A program made the position numbers and the translations under genes. Positions 19,293 to 44,963 of a stretch of DNA of 64,000 nucleotides are shown here, piece by piece; the first letter of the stretch is position 1; each line of letters begins with the position of its first letter. Under the pieces are notes generated by a model that was given only the letters and a program-made list of their open reading frames with translations, was not told the origin of the DNA and ran no database searches. The DNA comes from Lentihominibacter sp. (lineage in GTDB: Bacteria > Bacillota > Clostridia > Peptostreptococcales > Anaerovoracaceae), in assembly GCA_051882875.1 (NCBI GenBank), contig JBJESQ010000043.1:7284-71283 (forward strand). The letters are read 5' to 3'.

Positions 19293-19850
19293 CTATTTAA
19301 CAATAACGCAGCTGCCGTGAAGGTCCCCCAGGGGAACCAGCTTTAATGGCGGCTGCCCTGCTGCCGCAAGCTCTTCCTCGAACTCTGCGACGGCTTTTTT
19401 TATTCCTTCAAACTGCAGGTTGTTATAGTCGTGAAGAACGATAGCACCTCCCGGATTCAGTCTCTCATAGAAGAACCTGAGCCCTGCAAGAGCCGGCCCA
19501 TACAAATCCGGATCAATGCTGACGAAGGCAAACTCAGAATCAGAAATATCCGCCGCAGTCTCCGGAAAATAGCCTTTGCGCACAATGCACCGGTCCGGGT
19601 AAGGCATGCGAGCTAATACTCCCTCAACGGAGGTATCGCCAAAATCCCCTGCCTTTGCATAGGATAGTCTGCCGTCGGGATGAACATCGCTTCCCTGCTG
19701 CTCCGCGGCAATATCCCTCTCGTCAAACCCTTCGAAGGTATCAAACAGGTACAGCTTCCTGTCAGGAAACAGACCGTTCAGCAGCACTGCCGTGTCACCC
19801 TTGTAAACCCCAAGCTCAGCAACGGCGCCGATAATCACAACCTTCTTCAT
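19293..19850 (-). CDS. TylF/MycF-family methyltransferase, probably N-terminally deleted
   Basis: AELGVYKG, LYLFDTFEGF, FVSIDPDLY and GGAIVLHDY motifs. The N-terminus MKKVVIIGA joins directly to motif I. Confidence 0.75.
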   Translation of the reverse strand: MKKVVIIGAVAELGVYKGDTAVLLNGLFPDRKLYLFDTFEGFDERDIAAEQQGSDVHPDGRLSYAKAGDFGDTSVEGVLARMPYPDRCIVRKGYFPETAADISDSEFAFVSIDPDLYGPALAGLRFFYERLNPGGAIVLHDYNNLQFEGIKKAVAEFEEELAAAGQPPLKLVPLGDLHGSCVIVK

Positions 19851-19874
19851 TCAAGCCTCCATATACCGTACACG

Positions 19875-20306
19875 TTACAGCAGCTCCTCCAGAATGTTGC
19901 AGGCTGTCACCGCCAGCTTAGGGCAGATTTTTCCCAGCAGCCCCTTCTGCATTATTTCCTCCATGTCCTCAGGAATCTTGTACCCCAGAATCTCGCTGCA
20001 TATCAGTGAGCCGTGCTCTGCGATGAAGGCCTCCTCAAACTCGGCCTTCATTTTCATCATTTCTTCCTTGGCTTCAGCATCGTTCATTTTGCAGTGACCG
20101 TACTTCATGCCGATGGCCATCAGGGCGCCTGTAACGCAGCCGCAGGTGTTGCCGTGAAACATTCCGCCGCCGAAGCAGGCTCCTGCCTTGTACCCGAATT
20201 CCGGATCCATTCCCATGAGCTCCAGCCCGTGCCCGAAGGTTACCTGGGAGCAGTCAAGTCCCCCCTGATACATTTCCATTGCTTTCTCTTCAGTCATTCC
20301 TGCCAT
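19875..20306 (-). CDS. C-GCAxxG-C-C family putative redox protein
   Basis: DCSQ, GACFGGG, TCGCVTG and CPKL pattern. Confidence 0.88.
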   Translation of the reverse strand: MAGMTEEKAMEMYQGGLDCSQVTFGHGLELMGMDPEFGYKAGACFGGGMFHGNTCGCVTGALMAIGMKYGHCKMNDAEAKEEMMKMKAEFEEAFIAEHGSLICSEILGYKIPEDMEEIMQKGLLGKICPKLAVTACNILEELL

Positions 20307-20389
20307 AAATCCTACCTCCTAGTAATTTCATAATTTATTGCTTGCTTTAAAGGCGTCAGGACAATGTCCCGGCGCCTTTGTTAACATAA

Positions 20390-21661
20390 TTAATCAGTGA
20401 AAATGCAAAGGCTGTCCGTCCCGGCATAGCCTATCAGCGCAAGGCTGTTTGCCTTTGCAAGCTGAACTGCCCTGCCTGATATAGTGCCTTTGCCTGCCAT
20501 AACGGGAATGCCTGCCCGTATAACCTTCTTCACCATTTCACGGCTTACCCTGCCGCTGGTGAACAGGATGCAGTCGCTCATATCCACACCGTTTCTCACG
20601 GCCCATCCAATCACCTTATCGATGGCGCTGTGACGGCCTATATCCTCGCATTTAAACAGAATCTCCACACCATCGCCGCGGCCCCTTGCCAGCCGGCAGT
20701 TGTGTGCAGCCATTGTCTCCCTTCGCAAAGGCAGTATTTCCTCGAAATCCTTTGCCAGTGCGAAAATCCACTCCTTCTTCCAGGAGATGGGCTTTACCGG
20801 AAGCGGCTCATATCTGTCGGACTCATTGCCGGCAAACTGACCCCGCCTCGCTTCTCCCAAAGTCACCTCTGCCCGTGTTCCCTCCGCCGATATTCCAAGT
20901 GAAGACACCTCCTGCAGGCTGTTTATGAAGCCCTCGGCAATTAGCCACCCCAGCACCAGCTCTACCTGATACTGCGGCGTGCAGGGAACGGTCCCTGTGT
21001 AGAGGCCATTGACAAAAATCTCCAGGGAGTTCTCAAGAAGCATGTAATCGCTTCCCACCTCACGACTGCCGTCGGCTCTCACCCTTGTGAACTCGTTCGT
21101 TTCCACAAGGGGAAGCTCCGTGTCCTCATCTGATATTGCAGGCTCTCCGCCATTATCGTAGGCTGCCTCAATCAGGTCCACCAGCCTCTCAATGTCAGTT
21201 ATGGAGTTCACCACAGGGATGCCCCGGAACTCATCAAGAGCATTGGACACAACTCCGCTGCAGGCAACGGTCAGCTCATTTATCTGCTCTGCAAGGCTCT
21301 TGTCCCTGCCCTCTCCCGGATACTCCCCGGTAAGTCCCGTAACAACATTAGGGCAGTTCAGGTCAACATGGCTCTCTATTACCACCCAGTCGTTGTCATA
21401 ATGCCTCAGAATCTCCCGAAGATTCATCCTGCTGCCGAACATTATGTTGGTCTCGTCGTGGCAGCGGGCGGTAACGGGATCAGCACCGGCCCTTTTGTGC
21501 TTGCCGGTGTCAGCACTGTCCGAGTCCATTGTGAAGCCGTCAATGTGTATGCCCTTCACGGAGCCTACTGAATAGCCCCGCCGCACCAGCTCGGAAATAA
21601 TATTAGTAACCGTGGTTGTCTTCCCGGTTTTTTTTCGTCCCTGAATGTTTACTACCTTCAT
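20390..21661 (-). CDS. MobB-FdhD fusion (molybdopterin-guanine dinucleotide biosynthesis protein B fused to sulfurtransferase FdhD)
   Basis: N-terminal GRKKTGKTT...VGSVKGIH...DTGKH (MobB P-loop). C-terminal LLENSLEIFVNG...AAHNC...EDIGRHSAIDKVIG...TSGRVS (FdhD). Confidence 0.88.
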   Translation of the reverse strand: MKVVNIQGRKKTGKTTTVTNIISELVRRGYSVGSVKGIHIDGFTMDSDSADTGKHKRAGADPVTARCHDETNIMFGSRMNLREILRHYDNDWVVIESHVDLNCPNVVTGLTGEYPGEGRDKSLAEQINELTVACSGVVSNALDEFRGIPVVNSITDIERLVDLIEAAYDNGGEPAISDEDTELPLVETNEFTRVRADGSREVGSDYMLLENSLEIFVNGLYTGTVPCTPQYQVELVLGWLIAEGFINSLQEVSSLGISAEGTRAEVTLGEARRGQFAGNESDRYEPLPVKPISWKKEWIFALAKDFEEILPLRRETMAAHNCRLARGRGDGVEILFKCEDIGRHSAIDKVIGWAVRNGVDMSDCILFTSGRVSREMVKKVIRAGIPVMAGKGTISGRAVQLAKANSLALIGYAGTDSLCIFTD

Positions 21662-21873: not shown

Positions 21874-22566
21874 TTAAAACTCAATTACCTCATAGTCCTG
21901 ATTCAGCAGGTCTATTGTCAGCAGCCGCCCTGCCAGGGTCTCCTCTTTTCCAAGCAGCACCTTTACCGTCTCTGCCACCTGAATTCCGGAAACCACCGCC
22001 GGCGTAAATGGCGGATTCGTAGGCTTCTCATCCTCCCCCGGGTCATCCGCTTCCTCGCCGTAAATTTCATGCAAAAGCCCCATACCCGGCATTATTACTC
22101 CCACCTGTCCATGCCATCCGCCGATGGCGCCGTGAATCAGCGGTATGTTTTCTTCACCGCAGGCATCCTCCAGGGCAAGTCTTGCCTTCACATTATCCAG
22201 AGCATCAACAACCGCATCGTGTCCCCTGATGAAGTCTGCCGCGTTGTCTGAATCCAGGAGAGCCTGAATGGAATCAACCTGAACGGAATCGTTAATTGCC
22301 CTCATCTGGAGCTTGGCCTCTACTGCCTTTGCATGTCCCAGATTGTCCTGGTTTGACAGCACCTGGCGGTTGAGGTTTGTTTCGTCAAATACGTCACCGT
22401 CTATTACCGTGAGTCTGCCTACTCCAATCCGCACAAGGCCCTCGATAATGCCGCCCCCCAGGCCGCCGCAGCCAACCACGCAGACGGACTTTGCTGCCAG
22501 GAGCTGCTGCTCTTCCTCGGAAATTGTGCCGATGTTTCTGGTATATCTTTTATCCATAGTAATCAT
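21874..22566 (-). CDS. HesA/MoeB/ThiF family adenylyltransferase
   Basis: RYTRN, VVGCGGLGG, DGDVFDETNLNRQ and DALDN motifs. Confidence 0.93.
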   Translation of the reverse strand: MITMDKRYTRNIGTISEEEQQLLAAKSVCVVGCGGLGGGIIEGLVRIGVGRLTVIDGDVFDETNLNRQVLSNQDNLGHAKAVEAKLQMRAINDSVQVDSIQALLDSDNAADFIRGHDAVVDALDNVKARLALEDACGEENIPLIHGAIGGWHGQVGVIMPGMGLLHEIYGEEADDPGEDEKPTNPPFTPAVVSGIQVAETVKVLLGKEETLAGRLLTIDLLNQDYEVIEF

Positions 22567-22799
22567 CCGCCGTATACCTTGCTGAAGGCCTTCAGATAAT
22601 CTCCGTCATGGAGCTCGGTGTGTATGTCCACTCTCATTTTGTTAACGGATACGAAGCCGAGAGTCTTGTTGTCTCTGTAATCTATTCCCATGCTCATCAG
22701 AGCATCATGGCATGTGCTTCCCTCAGGAAGCTCAAGAATTCTCTCTTCATCGCCGTATTTCTTTTTCATTGTGCCTCGCATGGCAAGTGTTATTTTCAT
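22563..22799 (-). CDS. MoaD/ThiS family sulfur carrier
   Basis: Ubiquitin-like 78 aa ending in YGG. Start moved to ATG 22799. Confidence 0.88.
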   Translation of the reverse strand: MKITLAMRGTMKKKYGDEERILELPEGSTCHDALMSMGIDYRDNKTLGFVSVNKMRVDIHTELHDGDYLKAFSKVYGG

Positions 22800-22899
22800 A
22801 TCTTGTCCTTTCAAATCAATGTGATTGCAAATAAATAGAGCAGCAAAGTCTGAACCTTGCCACTCCATTATACATCATTTACGGAAATCTATCAGTATT

Positions 22900-24729
22900 T
22901 TACAGAAGTGTTCTGATTAATTCGTACGGCAGTGTACCGTCCTTGTTCCATCCCATTACTTCATAGTACTGGTCAAGCATGTCTTCAAATGCTTCAGGCG
23001 GAATTACCTGTCCTGCTGCAGGACCGTTTGACAGCTTGTCTCTTACTACTCTTTCAGGAACTGTATCGTGTCTTCTGTCGAAGCCTTCTCTCTGGTTGAA
23101 TGCTCTGCCGATGTTGAGAACTCTTCTTCCTACAGCTGCCATATCGTCCTCTGTCCATTCCTTGCCGGTGATGAGAGTCAGCAGCTCTGACATGATTGCA
23201 TAGTCAACTGTTCCCCAGAGGTCACAGAGGCAGCAGCTGAACTTGATTGCATTGAACTCACCGAGGTTATATACAATCTGTCCCTTGCCTTCCGGTGTGT
23301 ACGGAGGAACTGATGCTGCGAATACTTCTTCGTTAGGTGCATATGCTCTCATGTGGCATGCGCCTCTGTCTGATACTGCATATGACATTGCCATGCCCCA
23401 TGATCCACGCGGCTCATACTGAGGGTATTCAAGACCCTTAACCTGCATTGCGATGTCAAATCCGCCGTACTTCTCGGCTGCATACTTAACGCCGTTTGCC
23501 AGGTCTGAATAGAAGCCTTCTTCCCTTCTGGCCAGCTTCTCAACATATTCGCACATCTTGTCGGCTTCACCCCAGTGAATTCCGAAGTCGTAGCGGCCTG
23601 TTTCTGTCATTTCCATTGCCCATACGAGTGTGTCTCCTGTTGAGATTGTGTCAACACCCATGTTATCGCAAACCTGGTTGAACTTAACAATCTTCTGAGG
23701 ATCTGTATTGCCGGCGTTCGGGCCTGCTACTGCAGATGTTTCATACTCAGGTCCTTCACAGATAGCGTCGCCCATCTTGATGAAGTTACCGCATCCCAGA
23801 CCGCAGCTTCCGCAGCCTCTCTTGCCTTCTCTGTAAGGGAGTACTGCTGCGTCGTTGTACTTCTCCCATTCAGGGTCAGTTGTATCTGAGAAGTTCTTAT
23901 ACGGCATGATTCCGCCTTCCTGACATCCTTCCAGGAATGCGTAAGTACCAACGTCGAATACGAATTCGTTTTCTTCGTCCAGGCAGCTCTCATGGAGAAT
24001 CTCAAGGATTCTGTCTGTGGTTTCCTTGATGTTAGGAACCTTAACGCCCTTGCTTCCTCTAATCATAATGGCTTTCATCTTCTTGGAACCCATTACTGCA
24101 CCGATACCGCCACGGCCGGCCTGTCTGTAGTAGTCTGAGTTGATGCATGCCATATTTGAAAGGTTCTCACCTGCAGGTCCGATTGAGAGGCATGAGAACT
24201 CTCTGCCGTACTGGTCAATCAGCTGAGCTTCTGCTTCGTGTGAACCAAGTCCCCAGAGATTCTGAGCACCGAGGAATTCAACTCTGTCATCGTCGATAAC
24301 AACATATCCCGGCTCTGACAGCTGTCCTTCGAACACTATCATGTCATATCCGGCAAACTTCACTCTGATTCCTGCGTGTCCGCCGATTGAGCAGTCGTTC
24401 ATAGTTCCTGTTGCAGGTGACTTGGCTGCTACCGACAGCTTACCTGAGCAAGGAATCGGTGTTCCTGACATAGGACCTGTTGTTAAATACAGGTTGTTTT
24501 CAGGTCCGAGAGGATCGATTCCCGGCTTAAGTTCTTCATACATGTATCTGATTACCAGACCCTTGGAACCAACGTACTTCTCAGCAAAATCCATTCTGAG
24601 AGGCTCGATAGTTGCTTCTTTCTTAGTGAGGTTGATTCTCAGAACTGCGTTCTGATAAGCGCTCATTACAGTCTGCTTCGGATCGGCAGCCTGCTGTGCA
24701 TATTTTTCCTTTAATACCTTTGCGTTCAT
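22900..24729 (-). CDS. Aldehyde:ferredoxin oxidoreductase family protein (tungsten-type AOR/WOR) 1
   Basis: KSPATG, GRGGIGAVMGSKKMKAI, CGSCGLGC, GPEYET, CDNMGVDTIS and RGACH motifs. Confidence 0.95.
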   Translation of the reverse strand: MNAKVLKEKYAQQAADPKQTVMSAYQNAVLRINLTKKEATIEPLRMDFAEKYVGSKGLVIRYMYEELKPGIDPLGPENNLYLTTGPMSGTPIPCSGKLSVAAKSPATGTMNDCSIGGHAGIRVKFAGYDMIVFEGQLSEPGYVVIDDDRVEFLGAQNLWGLGSHEAEAQLIDQYGREFSCLSIGPAGENLSNMACINSDYYRQAGRGGIGAVMGSKKMKAIMIRGSKGVKVPNIKETTDRILEILHESCLDEENEFVFDVGTYAFLEGCQEGGIMPYKNFSDTTDPEWEKYNDAAVLPYREGKRGCGSCGLGCGNFIKMGDAICEGPEYETSAVAGPNAGNTDPQKIVKFNQVCDNMGVDTISTGDTLVWAMEMTETGRYDFGIHWGEADKMCEYVEKLARREEGFYSDLANGVKYAAEKYGGFDIAMQVKGLEYPQYEPRGSWGMAMSYAVSDRGACHMRAYAPNEEVFAASVPPYTPEGKGQIVYNLGEFNAIKFSCCLCDLWGTVDYAIMSELLTLITGKEWTEDDMAAVGRRVLNIGRAFNQREGFDRRHDTVPERVVRDKLSNGPAAGQVIPPEAFEDMLDQYYEVMGWNKDGTLPYELIRTLL

Positions 24730-24744
24730 GACTGTCCTCCTTCC

Positions 24745-25131
24745 TTACTCAAATGTCAGTGCGTTATGCGGACAAGTCTTAACACAGTTAGGATCTCCCT
24801 TACATGTGTCACAGATGTACGCAATATCGTCTCTGAGTCTTACAACGTGCTTAGGGCATTCATCTGCGCAAAGTCCGCAGCCAATGCACTTCTCAGGATC
24901 AACTTCGATGTATTCTCCGAATTTAATGGCATCGGCAGGACACGCCTTGGCACATCTGCCACAGAGGATGCAGTAGCTGTCATCATACTTCAGTGCTCCT
25001 CTATCGTAATATGATTCGATAAAGATTCTTGCCTTTGAAGGAACGTACTCCCCTTCTTTATAGGCAGAACAAACCTGAGAGCAAAGCTGGCATCCAATAC
25101 AAAGTTCTTTTTTGAATTTGAGTCTCTTCAT
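24745..25131 (-). CDS. 4Fe-4S dicluster protein (AOR electron-transfer subunit)
   Basis: Several CxxCxxCxxxCP motifs. Start moved to ATG 25131. Confidence 0.92.
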   Translation of the reverse strand: MKRLKFKKELCIGCQLCSQVCSAYKEGEYVPSKARIFIESYYDRGALKYDDSYCILCGRCAKACPADAIKFGEYIEVDPEKCIGCGLCADECPKHVVRLRDDIAYICDTCKGDPNCVKTCPHNALTFE

Positions 25132-25172
25132 TTGCTTGCTTCCTTTCCTATAAAATAAACTCATTTTTTACC

Positions 25173-25223
25173 AAAAAAAACAGCAAAGCAAAACCTGCCT
25201 GTCTATCGGCGGGTCTCCTTTGC
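25173..25223 (-). terminator. Intrinsic terminator overlapping the riboswitch 3' strand
   Basis: Minus strand GCAAAG-G-AGACCCGCC-loop-GGCAGGTTTT-G-CTTTGC, then TG and U8. Confidence 0.7.
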
Positions 25224-25300
25224 ACAATGGCAGGTCCGCAGATCGCTCCCCGGGCCCTGACGTTTTCACCGACTCCGTGAGCCCTGTGAAAATCGGAGAT
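25213..25300 (-). ncRNA. Moco-family riboswitch aptamer lacking P3 (tungsten-cofactor-associated subtype)
   Basis: Minus strand TCTCCGA-[TTTTCAC..GTGAAAA]-AGGG-[stem with GCGA tetraloop]-CCT-GC-CATTGT-GC-AAAGGAGA. This matches the Moco motif end CCTCCCGTATTTGGAAAGG with a compensatory C-G to G-C change in P5. Confidence 0.72.
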
Positions 25301-25327
25301 AATATTCACTTGCTTGCGTTCAGAATT

Positions 25328-25357
25328 ATTATACATTATCCTGCAAAACAATGTCAA
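25328..25357 (-). promoter_or_regulatory. Sigma-A promoter TTGACA-N18-TATAAT for the ferredoxin-AOR1 operon
   Basis: Consensus hexamers lie just upstream of the aptamer. The -35 box overlaps the stop codon of the upstream lipoprotein gene. Confidence 0.75.
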
Positions 25358-35809: not shown

Positions 35810-35970
35810 CCGGTCCTCGCTGAACCTGTCTGCGCACTTTTTTTATCAAAAACAAGCAAGCAATTATATGAATTTAAAGAGATTCAGACAAGTCTAAAAG
35901 AATTAAATCCGTATAACTTCAATAAAAAAAGTGCGCAGGCAAGTCCAACTAAAACCATTTCTTCAGTAAG

Positions 35971-36057
35971 ACTCCTTCGCACACCGGCAGGCAGCAGAAT
36001 CGCTCCCGCTACCCTATCGTCCCTGACGGCTGCTTGAGTCAGACAGGGATCGGAGAT
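35971..36057 (-). ncRNA. Moco-family riboswitch lacking P3, upstream copy of a tandem pair
   Basis: Minus strand ATCTCCGATCCCTG...CAGGGACGATAGGGTAGCGGGAGCGATTCTGCTGCCTGCCGGTGTGCGAAGGAGT, with P1 CTCC/GGAG and a GCGA tetraloop. Confidence 0.75.
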
Positions 36058-36082
36058 ATATTCATTTTTCAAAACCATCCTA

Positions 36083-36111: not shown

Positions 36112-36267
36112 TGGTTTAATAGGTAATGATGCAGTTACGCACAGTCAATTATCTCTTTTTCTTGACTACACCCACAAAAACTGTTTAAAATATAAGAGCG
36201 TATAATTTCAATACACAAAGCAAGCAAATTATAACTTAATACCTATCAATCAAAAACGGAGGCAATT

Positions 36268-39222
36268 ATGAATTTAAAGAAGATGACTCTGAACATTAAC
36301 GGTGCCGACCGTATGTTCATCTGTGATCCTGCCAAAGACACCCTTACTGACGTGCTGCGTCGTCTGGGCCTGACCGGAACGAAGGTCGGCTGCGGAATGG
36401 GCGCCTGCGGCGCATGCTCGGTAATTCTCGAAGGCAAGGTAATCAGATCCTGTACACGCAAAATCTCAAAGGTTGAAGAGTACTCGAAGGTAACCACAAT
36501 CGAAGGAATCGGAAGCGTGAACTATCCGCATCCGCTCCAGAGCCTGTGGGTAGCTTTCGGTGCCGTACAGTGCGGATTCTGCGTTCCCGGATTTATCGTT
36601 TCCTCTTATCAGCTTTTGCAGGATAATCCTAATCCTACAAGAGAAGATGTAAGAGACTGGTTCCAGAAGCACAGAAATGTCTGCAGATGTACAGGCTACA
36701 AGCACATCGTTGACGCAGTAATGGCTGCAGCTGAGGTTCTCAGAGGCGAGAAGACTGTTGAAGACTTCAGATATGACTGGTCAAAGGACATCGGTGATTT
36801 CTACGGCAAGCCGCTTGAAAGGCCTAATGCGCTGCCTAAGGCCTGCGGAGTATGTGACTACGGTGACGACATCGAGCTTCACATGCCTGCAGAAACTCTG
36901 AAGGTTGCTCTGGTTCAGCCAAGAATCACATCCCACGCAATCATTAAGAAAATCGATATGTCAGAAGCAGAGAAGATGCCTGGTGTTTACAGGATCATCA
37001 CTGCAGAAGATGCAAAGGCAGCCGGCTGCACAAACAAGCTAATGACTTATGCATTCTCAGCAAGAACTGTTGAGCTTGAACAGTGCCACCACATTCTGGC
37101 TGACGGCAAGATTCTGTACTACGGTGATGTAGTAGCTCTCGTCTGTGCAGATACAAGAGAGCACGCAGAAGCAGCTGCTGCAGCAGTAAAGGTTGAAATC
37201 GAACCGCTGCCTGAATACATGAGCTATCTGGAAGCAGTAACACCGGATGCCAGGAACATCCACGACTGGCTTCCTGATACATACGGCAAAAACATCTATT
37301 CACAGCTTCCTGTTCTGAAGGGTGACTATGAACATATTCCTGAGCTTATTGATGAAGCCGCTTACTCGGTTGAAGGCTCATTCTACTCATCAAGAGAACC
37401 TCACATGTCAATCGAAGGCGACGTTATGCAGGGATATTATGATGAAGACGACAACCTCTGCATCCACTGCAAGACAATGACACTCTACTTCGACAGAGAC
37501 GACATGGCAGAAGCTATCGGAATCGATGTTGATAAGCTGAGAGTTATCGAGAACCCTACAGGCGGATCCTTCGGATGGGCAATGAGTGCTCACACATATT
37601 CAATGATCGGTATTGCTGTAAGAGTAACAGGAATGCCTTGCTCACTGTCAATGGATTGGGATCAGTTCATGGCAGTATCAGGTAAGCGCTCACCGACCTA
37701 CTTCAACGGCAGACTGGCCTGCGATGCTGACGGAATGTTCCTGGCAGGTGAATTCGAAGCAGGCCTTGACCACGGTCCTTTCACAGAGCTGGGGGATGAC
37801 AAGCTGACCAAGCTTTCAAGATTCATGTTCTATCCTTACTACATACCAAATGCAGCAGGTCTCTCAAGAGTTGCCTACACTAACCATTCATTCGGTACAG
37901 CATACAGAGGATACGGAGCTCCACAGGCTTACACCTGCTCAGAGGCTCTGGTTGATATGCTTGCAGAAGAAGCCGGTATCGATCCATTTGAAATCAGATA
38001 TAAGAATATAGCAAGACTGGGACAGGATAACGTTAACCAGTATCCATATCTCCACTACCCAATGGAAGAAATGATGGATGCACTGAAGCCTGTATATGAC
38101 GAGAAAAAGGCAGAGGTTGAAGCATGGAACGCTGAACACGACGACGTTAAGAAGGGCGTTGGTCTGGCTTGGGGCGGATACAACGTTGGCCTCGGTGCAG
38201 TTGACGAAGCCCATGTAGCCATCGAGCTCATGCCTGACGGAACCTTCAGAAAGTATGACACATGGCAGGATCAGGGTCAGGGCGGCGACCAGGGATCACT
38301 CATCTGTACTCTGGAAGCACTGAAGCCTTACTTCCCTAACCTGACACCTAACGACATCAAGCTGATTCAGACCGACTCCAAGTACTGTCCTAACACAGGT
38401 GAGTCTGCAGGTTCAAGATCACACTATGCCAACGGCAAGGCTTCCATCGTAGCTGCCAAGAACATTGCCGATGCTATGAGAAAGCCTGACGGCACATACA
38501 GAACATATGACGAGATGGTTGCAGAAGGCATCCCTACAAGATATCAGGGTGACTGGGCAACTACTGACGAATACAGCTACTTCTACGATCTGGATCCTAA
38601 CGATGGTTCAGGTAACCCTACATACACTTACACTTATGCACTGTTCCTGGCTACAGTTGACGTAGACATGAAGACAGGCAAGGCTAAGTGCACAGGTATG
38701 ACATGCGTTGACTGGATTGGCAAGCCTGGCAACATTCAGGCTGTTGAAGGCCAGATTTACGGCGGAATGTCACACGCCATCGGCTTCGCCCTCAGCGAAG
38801 ACTATGAGGACGTTAAGAGGCACTCCAACATGGCAGCTGCAGGCGTTCCTTATATCAAGGACGTTCCTGACTATCCTGACTTCAATTACATCCATATTGA
38901 CGGTGTTGACCCTCGTGGACCTTTCGGTTCATCCGGAGCCTCCGAGGCATTCCAGTCATCAGACCATATGGCTGTAATCAACGCAATTAACAATGCCTGC
39001 GGCGTTCGTATCTACGAGCTGCCTGCAAGACCTGAAAAGATTAAGGCAGGCATTGAGGCTCTCGCCAAGGGTGAGCCTAACCCTAACAAGCCTGAAAAGT
39101 ACTTCCTGGGTAATGATATGTATGATGCTCTTGAAGACATTAAGGCTAATCCTCTTGATCCATCAAAGCCTGAAGATGTTGAATTCGGCGATCTGGGCGA
39201 AGAAGGAATCAGCTGGAAATAA
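36268..39222 (+). CDS. Molybdopterin-dependent aldehyde oxidoreductase (Mop, xanthine oxidase family) 1
   Basis: 2Fe-2S motifs GTKVGCGMGACGAC, QCGFC and RCTGY. Moco-domain motifs NPTGGSFG, AYRGYG, DQGQG and GPFGSSGASE. Confidence 0.95.
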   Translation: MNLKKMTLNINGADRMFICDPAKDTLTDVLRRLGLTGTKVGCGMGACGACSVILEGKVIRSCTRKISKVEEYSKVTTIEGIGSVNYPHPLQSLWVAFGAVQCGFCVPGFIVSSYQLLQDNPNPTREDVRDWFQKHRNVCRCTGYKHIVDAVMAAAEVLRGEKTVEDFRYDWSKDIGDFYGKPLERPNALPKACGVCDYGDDIELHMPAETLKVALVQPRITSHAIIKKIDMSEAEKMPGVYRIITAEDAKAAGCTNKLMTYAFSARTVELEQCHHILADGKILYYGDVVALVCADTREHAEAAAAAVKVEIEPLPEYMSYLEAVTPDARNIHDWLPDTYGKNIYSQLPVLKGDYEHIPELIDEAAYSVEGSFYSSREPHMSIEGDVMQGYYDEDDNLCIHCKTMTLYFDRDDMAEAIGIDVDKLRVIENPTGGSFGWAMSAHTYSMIGIAVRVTGMPCSLSMDWDQFMAVSGKRSPTYFNGRLACDADGMFLAGEFEAGLDHGPFTELGDDKLTKLSRFMFYPYYIPNAAGLSRVAYTNHSFGTAYRGYGAPQAYTCSEALVDMLAEEAGIDPFEIRYKNIARLGQDNVNQYPYLHYPMEEMMDALKPVYDEKKAEVEAWNAEHDDVKKGVGLAWGGYNVGLGAVDEAHVAIELMPDGTFRKYDTWQDQGQGGDQGSLICTLEALKPYFPNLTPNDIKLIQTDSKYCPNTGESAGSRSHYANGKASIVAAKNIADAMRKPDGTYRTYDEMVAEGIPTRYQGDWATTDEYSYFYDLDPNDGSGNPTYTYTYALFLATVDVDMKTGKAKCTGMTCVDWIGKPGNIQAVEGQIYGGMSHAIGFALSEDYEDVKRHSNMAAAGVPYIKDVPDYPDFNYIHIDGVDPRGPFGSSGASEAFQSSDHMAVINAINNACGVRIYELPARPEKIKAGIEALAKGEPNPNKPEKYFLGNDMYDALEDIKANPLDPSKPEDVEFGDLGEEGISWK

Positions 39223-42107: not shown

Positions 42108-44963
42108 ATGAATCTTAAAAAAATGACGCTGAAGATCAACGGTGCCGACCGTATGTTCATCTGCGATCCTGCCAAAGACACTCTTGCTGACGTTGTCAGA
42201 AGACTTGGTCTGACAGGAACGAAGGTTGGCTGCGGAATCGGTGTCTGCGGATCCTGTTCAGTTATTCTTAACGGTAAAGTAGTTCGCTCATGTACAAGAA
42301 AAATCTCAAAGATTGAGGAGTACAGCGAAGTAACAACCATCGAAGGCATTGGTCAGCCTAACTTCCTGCACCCGCTGCAGCTGGCATTCATGCACCACGG
42401 CGCAGTTCAGTGCGGATTCTGCATTCCCGGATTTATTGTTTCGGCATACGCCCTGCTCCAGGAAAACCCCGATCCTACAAGAGAAGAAGTTCGTGACTGG
42501 TTCACCAAGCACAGAAACATCTGCAGATGTACAGGCTACAAGCAGATTGTTGACTCTGTAATGATTGCTGCCAAGTGCATGCGGGGTGAAATCACCATGG
42601 ATGAAATCGCTCACCCTGAACCTGAGGTTGGTGAATACTACGGCAAGCCGACCCTCAGACCTTGCGCTCTGGCAAGAGTATGCGGCGTAGAAGACTACGG
42701 CGATGATATCGAGCTGAAGATGCCGTCAGGCGTTCTTCACGCAGCAATGGTTCAGCCAAGACAGTACAGCCACGCTAAGGTTAAGAGCATCGACATTTCA
42801 GAAGCAGAAAAAATGCCGGGAGTTTACAAGATTGTTCTGGCTAAGGATGTTCAGGGAAGCAACAGACTGGCATTCTTCTCATTCACACCAAGAACTCTGG
42901 CAACAGAAAAAACTCACCATGTAATCGCTGAAGACAGGATTATGAACTACGGCGATATCGTTGCTGTGGCAGTTGCCGACACCAAGGACCACGCCAGAGC
43001 AGCTGCTGCGAAGGTAAAGGTCGAGCTTGAACCGCTGCCTGAATACAACAACTATCTTGATGCAGTAATGCCTGATGCCATGAGAATTCACGATGACCAC
43101 CCTAACATGTGGTGCGTGCAGCCTACAGTTAAGGGGGCAGGTCACGATATCGATCCTCTTATTGAGGAAGCACCTTATGTGGTTGAAGGCTCATTCTACT
43201 CACAGCGTGAACCACACGGAAACATCGAAGGTGACTGCGTTCAGGCCTACATGGGGGAGGACGGACTGCTTACCGTTCAGTGCAAGGCTATGGCCATCGG
43301 TGCCAACCTTACGGATATCGCAGAAGCAACCGGCCTTCCGGTTGAGAAAATCCGTGTAATCGAGAACCCTACAGGAGCATCCTTCGGATGGTCAACTGCA
43401 GGACTGACATTCGCACTTGCCGCAATCGTATGCCAGGCATGTGACGGAATGCCGATTGCACTTTCAATGTCATATCAGGAGCACATCGCTTACGCAGGCA
43501 AAAGAGCACCTTCATGGTCAAATTCAACTCTGGCATGTGACGAAAACGGTAAGATTATCGCTGCCAAGTGGGACTTCGGTCTCGACCACGGCGCTTACAA
43601 CGAGCTGGGTGACGACCTGACATGGAGACCTGCAAGATTCACATACTTCCCTTACAACGTGCCAAACGTTAAGGGTCTGTCGAGAGTTGCCACAACTAAC
43701 CACGCTTACGGATGCGCATACAGAGGCTACGGATCACCTCAGGCCTTCACCTGCTCAGAGGCAATGATGGACATGATGGCTGAGAAAATCGGCATGGATC
43801 CATTTGACATCCGTTACATCAACATCGCACGTGAGGGTGACACAAACGTCAATCAGAGACCTTTCAGAGAATATGTTCTTGAGGGCATGATGGACAGACT
43901 GAAGCCGCTTTATGAAGAGGCAAAGGCCCGCGCAAAGGCAGAGGACACTCCTGAGGTAAGACGCGGCGTAGGTATCGCTTGGGGCGGATACAATGTAACT
44001 GAAGGTTACGATGACCAGTGCACTCTGGGTATCGAAATCGCACCGAACGGCAAGTTCATCAAGTATGATACCTGGCAGGATGTAGGCCAGGGCGGCGATG
44101 CCGGTTCACTGGTTGTTACTCTGGAATGCCTGAAGGAGCTTGGCGTCAAGAAAGAAGATATCATTCTCAGACAGAATGACAGTATATACGGAGTTGACTC
44201 AGGTTCATCAGCATCATCACGTCAGCATTACATGAACACCAAGGCCTGCAAGATGGCATGCGACAAGCTGATAAATGCAATGAAGAAGCCTGACGGCACA
44301 TACAGAACATATGAAGAGATGGTTGCTGAAGGCATCCCTACAAGATACGATGCCCAGTACAAGAACCACACTGACCCTACCCTGTCATATCTTGATCCTA
44401 ACACCGGAGAAGGAGAGCCTACACCTGCATTCACATATGCACTGTTCATGGCAGAGGTTGCTGTAGAGGTTGCTACAGGTAAGACTACAGTGCTGAAATT
44501 CACCTGCATCGATGACGTGGGAGTAATCGGAAACCCTGTTTGTCTTGACGGACAGGCCTACGGCGGAATTGCTCACTCAATCGGATATGCTCTCTATGAG
44601 GACTACGAGGATGTTAAGAAGCAGAACAATATCCTGGGCTGCGGTATCGCAACAGCAAACATGCTGCCGGACGACATTGAACTGATTCACATCGAAACTC
44701 CAAGAAACACTTCACCGTTCGGTTCATCCGGCGGCTCTGAAGCATTCCAGTCAGGTGACCACATGGCAGTAATCAACGCCATCAATAACGCAACCGGACT
44801 TAGAGTTTACGAGCTGCCTGCATATCCTGAAAAGGTTAAGGCAGGTCTGGAAGCAATGGCTGCAGGTCAGAAGGACCCTCTCAAGCCGGAAAAATACTTC
44901 CTGGGTTCAGACTTCGACGAAGAGATGGAAAACATCAAAAACAATCCTGTTTACTTCGACTAA
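42108..44963 (+). CDS. Molybdopterin-dependent aldehyde oxidoreductase (Mop) 2
   Basis: Start moved to ATG 42108 (SD GGAGGT). Collinear paralog of Mop1 with the same 2Fe-2S and Moco motifs. Confidence 0.95.
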   Translation: MNLKKMTLKINGADRMFICDPAKDTLADVVRRLGLTGTKVGCGIGVCGSCSVILNGKVVRSCTRKISKIEEYSEVTTIEGIGQPNFLHPLQLAFMHHGAVQCGFCIPGFIVSAYALLQENPDPTREEVRDWFTKHRNICRCTGYKQIVDSVMIAAKCMRGEITMDEIAHPEPEVGEYYGKPTLRPCALARVCGVEDYGDDIELKMPSGVLHAAMVQPRQYSHAKVKSIDISEAEKMPGVYKIVLAKDVQGSNRLAFFSFTPRTLATEKTHHVIAEDRIMNYGDIVAVAVADTKDHARAAAAKVKVELEPLPEYNNYLDAVMPDAMRIHDDHPNMWCVQPTVKGAGHDIDPLIEEAPYVVEGSFYSQREPHGNIEGDCVQAYMGEDGLLTVQCKAMAIGANLTDIAEATGLPVEKIRVIENPTGASFGWSTAGLTFALAAIVCQACDGMPIALSMSYQEHIAYAGKRAPSWSNSTLACDENGKIIAAKWDFGLDHGAYNELGDDLTWRPARFTYFPYNVPNVKGLSRVATTNHAYGCAYRGYGSPQAFTCSEAMMDMMAEKIGMDPFDIRYINIAREGDTNVNQRPFREYVLEGMMDRLKPLYEEAKARAKAEDTPEVRRGVGIAWGGYNVTEGYDDQCTLGIEIAPNGKFIKYDTWQDVGQGGDAGSLVVTLECLKELGVKKEDIILRQNDSIYGVDSGSSASSRQHYMNTKACKMACDKLINAMKKPDGTYRTYEEMVAEGIPTRYDAQYKNHTDPTLSYLDPNTGEGEPTPAFTYALFMAEVAVEVATGKTTVLKFTCIDDVGVIGNPVCLDGQAYGGIAHSIGYALYEDYEDVKKQNNILGCGIATANMLPDDIELIHIETPRNTSPFGSSGGSEAFQSGDHMAVINAINNATGLRVYELPAYPEKVKAGLEAMAAGQKDPLKPEKYFLGSDFDEEMENIKNNPVYFD

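What the first reader, a model, noticed from the sequence alone, without database searches (positions are those of the whole stretch)
25173..25357. Third P3-less Moco-family aptamer with the same ON-type platform above the ferredoxin-AOR1-moaD-thiF-mobB/fdhD operon
Seen: this aptamer shares TCTCCGA, AGGG, the GCGA tetraloop and CCTGC...GC(A/G)AAGGAG with the tandem pair but has different, still-pairing stems, which is natural covariation. Its 3' strand GCAAAGGAGAC again forms the 5' arm of the U8 terminator. All three enzyme-linked copies have a G-C pair in P5 where the transporter-linked copy has the canonical C-G. Inference: these form a distinct subtype that may discriminate W from Mo cofactor.
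Basis: partly seen in the sequence, partly recalled or inferred. Interest (0 to 1): 0.68.

Follow-up and report, generated by a model that had tools for sequence, protein, structure and literature searches.

The report
Cofactor-activated riboswitch before tungsten aldehyde oxidoreductase
This is a real RNA sensor of the molybdenum/tungsten-cofactor riboswitch family, wired to switch a tungsten-type aldehyde oxidoreductase operon on; it belongs to a widespread variant that standard annotation mostly misses and that I found described in no paper I could search.

Summary
Window 25214-25299 (- strand) holds an 86-nt aptamer, P1 to P1, of the Moco/Tuco family (RF01055). It scores 23.9 bits, below the 36-bit cut-off. 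It has no P3, a GCGA tetraloop and no tetraloop receptor, and one of the two P5 pairs is flipped from C-G to G-C.

A perfect promoter lies upstream (25357-25328). The aptamer's 3' strand is the 5' arm of the only stable terminator (U8 at 25180-25173), so aptamer and terminator cannot coexist. This predicts an ON switch for ferredoxin-AOR1-MoaD-ThiF-MobB/FdhD.

P3-less aptamers upstream of AOR genes are already known as the Tuco/Wco class (Regulski 2008; E. limosum WOR1, 2024). P3 loss does not set these three copies apart, because the genome's two other high-scoring copies also lack P3.

What does set them apart is the flipped P5 pair together with a non-GAAA tetraloop and no receptor.
- I collected 109 distinct aptamers of this type, from Bacillota, Chloroflexota and a few other phyla.
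- 88 of them sit within 1.6 kb upstream of an AOR gene, against 0 of 43 canonical aptamers.
- 67 of them have the aptamer-overlapping terminator, against 1 of 41 canonical.

Whether the subtype tells W from Mo is untested. Some relatives place it before a xanthine-dehydrogenase-family (typically Mo) enzyme.

Verdict: a new variant of a known kind.

The parts
25328..25357 (-). Sigma-70-type promoter: -35 TTGACA (25357-25352, overlapping the TGA stop of the upstream gene), 18-nt spacer, -10 TATAAT (25333-25328). The inferred transcription start is near 25320.
   Evidence: 12 of 12 consensus matches; sequence
25214..25299 (-). Aptamer, P1 to P1. P1 25299-25295 / 25218-25214; P2 25292-25286 / 25269-25263; distal P2 25283-25279 / 25275-25271; no P3; J2/4 CGUCA; P4 25257-25247 / 25242-25232; GCGA tetraloop 25246-25243; P5 25231-25230 (GC) / 25223-25222 (GC); J5/1 AAA 25221-25219.
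25173..25223 (-). Intrinsic terminator. 5' arm 25223-25208 (GCAAAGGAGACCCGCC, which is P5-3', J5/1 and P1-3' of the aptamer); loop 25207-25200; 3' arm 25199-25183; U8 at 25180-25173. It excludes P1 and P5.
   Evidence: stem about -20 kcal/mol; downstream-only sequence folds to -8.1 and leaves the U-proximal bases unpaired
24745..25131 (-). Poly-ferredoxin (4Fe-4S), comparable to a WorS/AOR small subunit. ATG at 25131; ribosome-binding site AGGAAAGGAAG at 25148-25138.
   Evidence: Fer4, E 1.3e-22
22900..24729 (-). AOR1, an aldehyde:ferredoxin oxidoreductase family tungstoenzyme (609 aa).
   Evidence: AFOR_N 2.9e-73, AFOR_C 3.4e-102
22563..22868 (-). MoaD/ThiS-like sulfur-carrier protein. It is the only MoaD-like gene that tblastn finds in the assembly.
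21874..22566 (-). ThiF/MoeB-like adenylyltransferase.
   Evidence: ThiF, E 1e-54
20390..21661 (-). MobB-FdhD fusion, a candidate cofactor maturation or sulfuration factor.
19293..20306 (-). C_GCAxxG_C_C redox protein (19875-20306) and a TylF-type methyltransferase (19293-19850). Both are on the same strand and may form the operon tail.
   Evidence: operon membership is inferred from strand and spacing only

Best explanation
A transcriptional ON riboswitch of the Moco/Tuco (Wco) family, of an AOR-dedicated structural subtype.

Proposed sequence of events:
1. Transcription starts at the consensus promoter, around 25320.
2. The nascent RNA folds P2 and P4 first.
3. The last 12 nt of the aptamer (P5-3' GC, the AAA junction and P1-3' GGAGA) then have two options. 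They can close P5 and P1, or they can pair with 25199-25183 to complete a terminator hairpin directly before U8.
4. Without ligand the terminator wins and RNA polymerase stops at about 25173-25180.
5. When the pterin cofactor (most likely the tungsten form used by AOR) binds, P1 and P5 are locked and the terminator cannot nucleate. The ferredoxin-AOR1-MoaD-ThiF-MobB/FdhD operon is then transcribed.

The logic is that the apoenzyme and its dedicated maturation factors are made only when cofactor is available. This is the opposite polarity to the canonical copies of the same genome, which have free-standing terminators before uptake-type operons.

Shown: the homology, the structure, the covariation, the mutual exclusivity of aptamer and terminator, the conservation of that layout, and the gene association. 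Inferred: the ligand identity, the actual regulation and its polarity in vivo.
For: Family membership:
- RF01055 matches full length with P3 deleted.
- Compensatory changes occur in 10 pairs among the three window copies. In 76 cross-phylum sequences they occur in 19 pairs and 514 cells, with 92.9% of cells paired against 38-57% when partners are slid.

ON logic:
- The full-leader MFE (-48.2 kcal/mol) contains the terminator. The aptamer-enforced state is -42.1. The first 96 nt alone fold into P1, P2 and P4.
- The U-proximal stem bases pair only with aptamer nucleotides. The downstream sequence alone leaves them unpaired.
- The same layout is found in 67 of 109 distinct variant aptamers, against 1 of 41 canonical ones.
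- The terminator's partner covaries with the variable aptamer position R (A-U 40, G-C 11) and with the variable P1 extension.

Context:
- Pfam assigns the operon genes.
- Among same-genus variant hits, about 24 precede Fdx-AOR1-MoaD-ThiF-MobB/FdhD and 5-6 precede AOR2.
- Across phyla, 88 of 109 variants have an AOR within 1.6 kb, against 0 of 43 canonical aptamers.
- The genome's canonical copies carry free-standing terminators whose 5' arm is complementary to GGAAAGGA, which is classic OFF design.
- MoaA, MoaC and two MoeA genes are present, so the cell can in principle make the ligand.
Against:
- The score is below Rfam's gathering threshold (23.9 against 36 bits).
- P1 is only 5 bp.
- About 40% of variant aptamers elsewhere did not meet my strict ON criterion. 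12 of 109 have an apparently independent terminator, so the subtype is not uniformly ON.
- An ON switch over MoaD and ThiF would put cofactor-synthesis-type genes under positive feedback, which needs basal read-through or a different role for those genes.
- The ligand has never been shown to bind any Moco RNA in vitro, because the cofactor is unstable (PMC2408646).
- The statistics are not corrected for phylogeny.
Confidence: 0.74

Rival explanations
1. Same architecture, different ligand. The flipped P5 pair, next to the invariant AAAGGAG core, retunes the pocket. This subtype would then sense a species other than the one read by canonical P3-less copies, for example the non-nucleotide W-bis-pyranopterin that AOR uses, metal-free MPT, or either metal form without discrimination.
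For: - The pair's identity, not just its pairing, is fixed: G-C in 38 of 38 variants from relatives and in 72 of the 76 aligned cross-phylum sequences, and C-G or U-A in all canonical ones.
- Both types coexist in single genomes with different gene sets.
- The AOR link (88/109) is tighter than the ON link (67/109), so the flip tracks the enzyme rather than the platform.
Against: - No binding data or structure exist for any member.
- The flip always travels with loss of the GAAA tetraloop and its receptor. The whole package could therefore be one inherited peripheral remodelling with no change of specificity.
- Some congeners use the variant before an XDH-family (typically Mo) enzyme.
Confidence: 0.17
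2. A constitutive attenuator or degenerate relic. The aptamer no longer binds anything, and the terminator simply sets a low basal level or ends the upstream transporter operon.
For: - The Rfam score is below threshold.
- No terminator separates the upstream operon's last gene (stop at 25354) from this leader, so the hairpin also serves as that operon's terminator.
Against: - There is strong purifying selection with compensatory changes across at least three phyla.
- A perfect promoter sits immediately upstream.
- The aptamer-terminator overlap is conserved and covaries.
Confidence: 0.05
3. An OFF switch, or translational control. Ligand binding would repress the operon, as it does in E. coli moaA.
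For: - The only experimentally tested member, E. coli moaA, is an OFF switch (PMC2408646).
Against: - Aptamer and terminator share 12 nt and cannot form together.
- No alternative U-proximal hairpin exists in the downstream sequence.
- The ribosome-binding site at 25148-25138 lies beyond U8 and is not paired with the aptamer.
Confidence: 0.04

Closest known systems
Moco RNA motif / Moco riboswitch (Rfam RF01055; E. coli moaA; Regulski et al. 2008, PMC2408646)
   Same: The P1-P2-P4-P5 architecture is shared, as are the conserved CUCCGA, AGGG and CCU..AAAGGAG blocks and the GNRA-capped P4. Both are associated with pterin-cofactor genes.
   Different: This copy has no P3 and no 11-nt tetraloop receptor. 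Its tetraloop is GCGA rather than GAAA. One P5 pair is flipped to G-C. It scores below the gathering threshold. It has a terminator-overlap ON platform, whereas moaA is an OFF switch that sequesters the ribosome-binding site.
Tuco/Wco riboswitch class (P3-lacking Moco RNAs; Regulski 2008; tandem Wco in PMC9481103; E. limosum WOR1 leader, PMC11725836)
   Same: Both lack P3, sit upstream of AOR/WOR-type tungstoenzyme operons that begin with a poly-ferredoxin, and occur in tandem arrangements. This is the class the element belongs to.
   Different: The published descriptions I could read do not mention the P5 G-C flip, the receptor-less GYRA subtype or an ON polarity. For the E. limosum operons the paper proposes RBS-sequestering structures or a terminator hairpin placed after the riboswitch. 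The canonical P3-less copies in this same genome keep GAAA plus receptor, keep C-G in P5, and have free-standing terminators.
pbuE (ydhL) adenine riboswitch: a transcriptional ON switch by P1/terminator competition (from my own knowledge, not tested here)
   Same: The expression-platform logic is the same. The 3' strand of the ligand-stabilised closing helix is also the 5' arm of the terminator.
   Different: It is an unrelated aptamer fold with a different ligand. The resemblance is in mechanism only.

Membership tests
Moco RNA motif (RF01055) | Score at or above the curated gathering threshold (36 bits) | tested here: not met
   C scores 23.9 bits, B1 33.3 and B2 27.0. Of about 21 variant aptamers from other genomes, only 3 reach 36 bits.
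Moco RNA motif (RF01055) | Full-length match with the conserved CUCCGA, AGGG and CCU..AAAGGAG blocks and P1, P2 and P4 helices supported by covariation | tested here: met
   The match covers model positions 1-135. Covariation is shown.
Moco RNA motif (RF01055) | GAAA tetraloop on P4 docking into an 11-nt receptor in P2 | tested here: not met
   The tetraloop is GCGA and there is no CCUAAG..UAUGG receptor. Regulski 2008 reports rare members with non-GAAA loops that also lack the receptor.
Moco RNA motif (RF01055) | P5: two C-G pairs (CC...GG) | tested here: not met
   The helix forms, but its first pair is G-C (GC...GC) in every variant aptamer examined. Canonical hits have CC..GG or UC..GA.
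Moco RNA motif (RF01055) | 5' regulatory position before Mo/W cofactor genes | tested here: met
Tuco/Wco subclass | P3 stem absent | tested here: met
   The P3 columns are deleted in the Rfam alignment. Only 5 nt lie between P2 and AGGG.
Tuco/Wco subclass | Association with tungsten-cofactor enzymes or tungsten metabolism | tested here: met
   An AOR lies downstream. 88 of 109 relatives have an AOR within 1.6 kb. A tupABC-like operon sits under a sister aptamer in a congener.
Tuco/Wco subclass | Selective response to the W form of the cofactor over the Mo form | not testable with these tools
   This needs reporter or binding assays. It has not been shown directly for any member (PMC2408646).
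Transcriptional ON riboswitch | Terminator and ligand-stabilised helix are mutually exclusive, and no separate anti-terminator exists | tested here: met
   conserved and covarying
Transcriptional ON riboswitch | Ligand-dependent read-through observed | not testable with these tools

The most novel reading that the evidence does not exclude
The receptor-less aptamers with the flipped P5 pair form an unrecognised, cross-phylum subclass of the Moco/Wco riboswitch that is dedicated to AOR-family enzymes and is mostly wired ON. Its fixed core change would reflect a different ligand preference from the canonical P3-less copies that control uptake in the same cells, for example the W-bis-pyranopterin of AOR. 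That would make it a coenzyme riboswitch licensing apoenzyme synthesis, and a handle on how RNA reads the metal or the form of the pterin cofactor.
Probability: 0.25. Interest if true: 0.75.

Novelty: new variant of a known kind. Interest (0 to 1): 0.55.

Why it matters
Coenzyme riboswitches almost always repress synthesis or import. One that turns on the enzyme consuming the coenzyme is a different regulatory logic: feed-forward licensing of an expensive Fe-S/W apoenzyme.

The subtype is common in gut and rumen Clostridia and in Anaerolineae, yet it mostly scores below Rfam's cut-off. AOR regulation is therefore under-annotated in metagenomes.

One strictly conserved flipped base pair in the core gives a clean, testable entry point. 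The question of how, or whether, these RNAs distinguish forms of the Mo/W pterin cofactor has been open since 2008, because the ligand is too unstable for ordinary binding assays.

Tried and rejected
- The genome search with RF01055 on the window's own genome did not report the three variant copies even at E <= 1. I therefore built a model from the three copies (R1).
- My first platform score, 'aptamer 3' end paired downstream', also flagged canonical OFF switches, because their anti-terminators pair with the same segment (for example L040:214-320, before a tupABC-like operon). I replaced it with a stricter test. The U-proximal bases must pair into the aptamer, and the fold must lose at least 5 kcal/mol without it.
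- The simple terminator scanner missed the riboswitch terminator, which has internal mismatches. ViennaRNA folds were used instead.
- The idea that P3 loss distinguishes enzyme-linked copies was rejected.
- The idea that the organism cannot make the cofactor was only partly borne out. MoaA, MoaC and two MoeA genes are present, but MoaE was not found in this 92.5%-complete assembly.
- The supplementary alignment of Regulski 2008 is largely held as images, so I could not establish whether it contains this subtype.
- Literature searches for an ON-type or variant Moco/Wco riboswitch found nothing.
- The GCAAGCAA motif is not significantly enriched in the window: 8 copies against 4.4 expected.

Full report
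**What is there**

On the - strand a perfect sigma-70 promoter (TTGACA, 18 nt, TATAAT; 25357-25328) overlaps the stop codon of the preceding gene. An 86-nt structured element follows at 25299-25214, then a hairpin and U8 (25180-25173), then a ribosome-binding site and the ATG at 25131.

Rfam's Moco/Tuco model RF01055 aligns to 25199-25310 over its whole length. The score is 23.9 bits, E 0.0042 for a 1-kb search against all 4227 families, with the P3 columns deleted. The gathering score is 36 bits, so routine annotation would not report it. Only the copy at 32965-33096 passes, at 45 bits.

The two copies of the tandem pair at 35708-36067 score 33.3 and 27.0 bits. The three copies align without gaps over 96 columns.

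**Is it more than chance?**

Among the three window copies, 10 of 29 pairs carry changes on both sides. 89.7% of cells are paired, against 34-52% when the partners are slid.

A covariance model built from them (R1) found no further copy in the genome. It matched 27 of 81 related genomes (the window's own included), almost all of them in the same genus.

Hits came from many Bacillota, many Anaerolineae (Chloroflexota), and single Desulfobacteraceae, Negativicutes, Spirochaetes and other assemblies. 69 of the 73 fetched loci that I searched were confirmed by the model. The other 4 are about the number expected by chance.

In that 76-sequence alignment, 19 pairs and 514 cells show compensatory change and 92.9% of cells are paired. 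The RNA structure is real and old.

**What it controls**

Pfam assigns the downstream genes as follows:
- a 4Fe-4S poly-ferredoxin
- an aldehyde:ferredoxin oxidoreductase (AOR1)
- a MoaD/ThiS-like protein
- a ThiF/MoeB-like protein
- a MobB-FdhD fusion
- a GCAxxG protein
- a TylF-type methyltransferase

Same-genus homologues of the aptamer precede the same Fdx-AOR1-MoaD-ThiF-MobB/FdhD block about 24 times. They precede the AOR2 paralogue 5-6 times. In several species they precede a roughly 1000-aa xanthine-dehydrogenase-family protein.

**How it most likely works**

The last 12 nt of the aptamer (P5-3' GC, the AAA junction, P1-3' GGAGA, plus CC) form the 5' arm of the hairpin that abuts U8.
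- The sequence downstream of P1 cannot on its own pair the U-proximal bases.
- The full-leader MFE (-48.2 kcal/mol) contains the terminator, while the aptamer-enforced fold is -42.1.
- The first 96 nt alone fold into P1, P2 and P4.

The aptamer forms first and is then displaced unless something stabilises it. That is the design of a transcriptional ON switch.

The design is conserved. By a strict criterion, 67 of 109 distinct subtype aptamers have it, against 1 of 41 canonical aptamers. The terminator strand also covaries with the variable aptamer positions.

The canonical copies of this genome instead carry free-standing terminators. Their 5' arm is complementary to GGAAAGGA, the classic OFF layout, and they sit before surface-protein and importer operons. 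In a congener a canonical copy precedes a tupABC-like tungstate importer.

The locus thus reads as demand (AOR) switched on, and supply (uptake) switched off, by the same class of signal. Ligand identity and in-vivo polarity are inferred, not shown.

**What is known and what is not**

P3-lacking Moco RNAs, their link to tungsten enzymes, and tandem arrangements were described in 2008 (PMC2408646) and reviewed as 'Wco' riboswitches (PMC9481103). A P3-less copy upstream of the E. limosum WOR1 operon, which also begins with a poly-ferredoxin and an AOR-type subunit, was reported in 2024 (PMC11725836).

P3 loss is also not what separates these copies. The genome's two best RF01055 hits lack P3 too.

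**What does separate them**

The separating feature is a package: a G-C flip of one P5 pair, a non-GAAA tetraloop (GCGA, GUGA, GCAA or GUAA), no 11-nt receptor, and a compact core (84 nt from CUCCGA to AAGGAG in the window copies).
- In hits not selected on P5, the pair is G-C in 38 cases and C-G or U-A in 16, never mismatched.
- In 24 above-threshold RF01055 hits from a sample of 300 Clostridia genomes it is always C-G or U-A, with GAAA plus receptor.
- The package tracks AOR: 88 of 109 subtype aptamers have an AOR within 1.6 kb and 5 have the XDH-family gene, against 0 of 43 canonical aptamers with an AOR.
- Rfam reaches its threshold for only 3 of about 21 subtype aptamers tested.

I found no description of this subtype or of an ON polarity in the searchable literature. 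The 2008 supplementary alignment is largely held as images and could not be checked.

**Caveats**

- The cross-phylum set was selected by a pattern that fixes the tetraloop class and P5. Within that set, only the gene association and the platform are independent observations.
- Counts are not corrected for shared descent.
- About 40% of subtype aptamers did not meet the strict ON test, and 12 have an independent terminator.
- The XDH-family association argues against a strictly tungsten-specific role.
- MoaD and ThiF under an ON switch imply positive feedback or a maturation role. MoaA, MoaC and two MoeA genes are present, but MoaE was not found in this 92.5%-complete assembly.
- No transcript data could be consulted.

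**Verdict**

This is a new variant of a known kind, of moderate interest.

Noticed in passing
window 35830-35960 (- strand), between the two tandem aptamers; also L013, L037, L039, L044, L045, L053, L059: The 3' arm and U-tract of the first tandem terminator (ACTTGCCTGCGCACTTTTTTTAT) recur about 90 nt downstream as a near-perfect inverted repeat (ATAAAAAAAGTGCGCAGACAGGT). The loop holds a promoter-like TTGTCT-17-TATAAT, so the second aptamer may have its own start. The inverted repeat is conserved in congeners, where it lies between a variant aptamer and an XDH-family gene.
   Followed up: partly
L039, L044, L045, L059 (congeners) versus window 36268-39222 (+): In several congeners the variant aptamer precedes a roughly 1000-aa Fer2-MoCoBD (xanthine-dehydrogenase-family, typically Mo) enzyme. 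In the window the orthologous gene is divergent from the tandem pair and has no aptamer of its own. A 57%-identical paralogue lies at about window 42108-44951.
   Followed up: partly
window 25310-25317, 33101-33108, 35856-35863, 36220-36227, 25132-25139, 20338-20345: GCAAGCAA (or its complement) sits 0-15 nt downstream of the -10 box of four Mo/W-related promoters (aptamers C, A and B2, and the XDH gene) and before two start codons. Overall it is not significantly enriched: 8 copies against 4.4 expected. It could be an operator or leader motif, or chance.
   Followed up: partly
genome contigs C18:11346-11467 (+) and C12:60569-60694 (-) (L001, L002): Two more Moco-family aptamers score 66.6 and 59.1 bits. 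Both lack P3 but keep GAAA plus receptor and C-G in P5. Each has a free-standing terminator before operons of large surface proteins, a small conserved protein beginning MRVYICVDD, and a FecCD-type permease.
   Followed up: partly
whole genome (G000): MoaA, MoaC and two MoeA genes are present, but no MoaE was detected. The only MoaD-like gene is the one in the AOR1 operon. The assembly is 92.5% complete.
   Followed up: partly
L075 372-2668 (G036:C13): A canonical P3-less aptamer in a congener precedes a three-gene ABC importer. Its binding protein carries a TTTS-type motif (ATTTSTKDSG), which I recall as typical of the tungstate-binding protein TupA. The platform is OFF-type: a small UUCUUC/GAAGAA terminator with an anti-terminator.
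   Followed up: partly
L099 668-761, 830-922, 3750-3842; L118 3540-3620, 3862-3942: Multiple subtype aptamers occur on single contigs of a soil Bacillota MAG and a Desulfobacteraceae MAG. Two of the L099 copies have a GGAA tetraloop and CCGGCC or CCAGCC in place of CCYGCC, while keeping the flipped P5 pair.
   Followed up: no
window 25354-25357: The -35 box of the riboswitch promoter overlaps the stop codon of the last gene of the upstream transporter operon, and no terminator lies between them. Read-through from that operon would therefore also be gated by this riboswitch.
   Followed up: no
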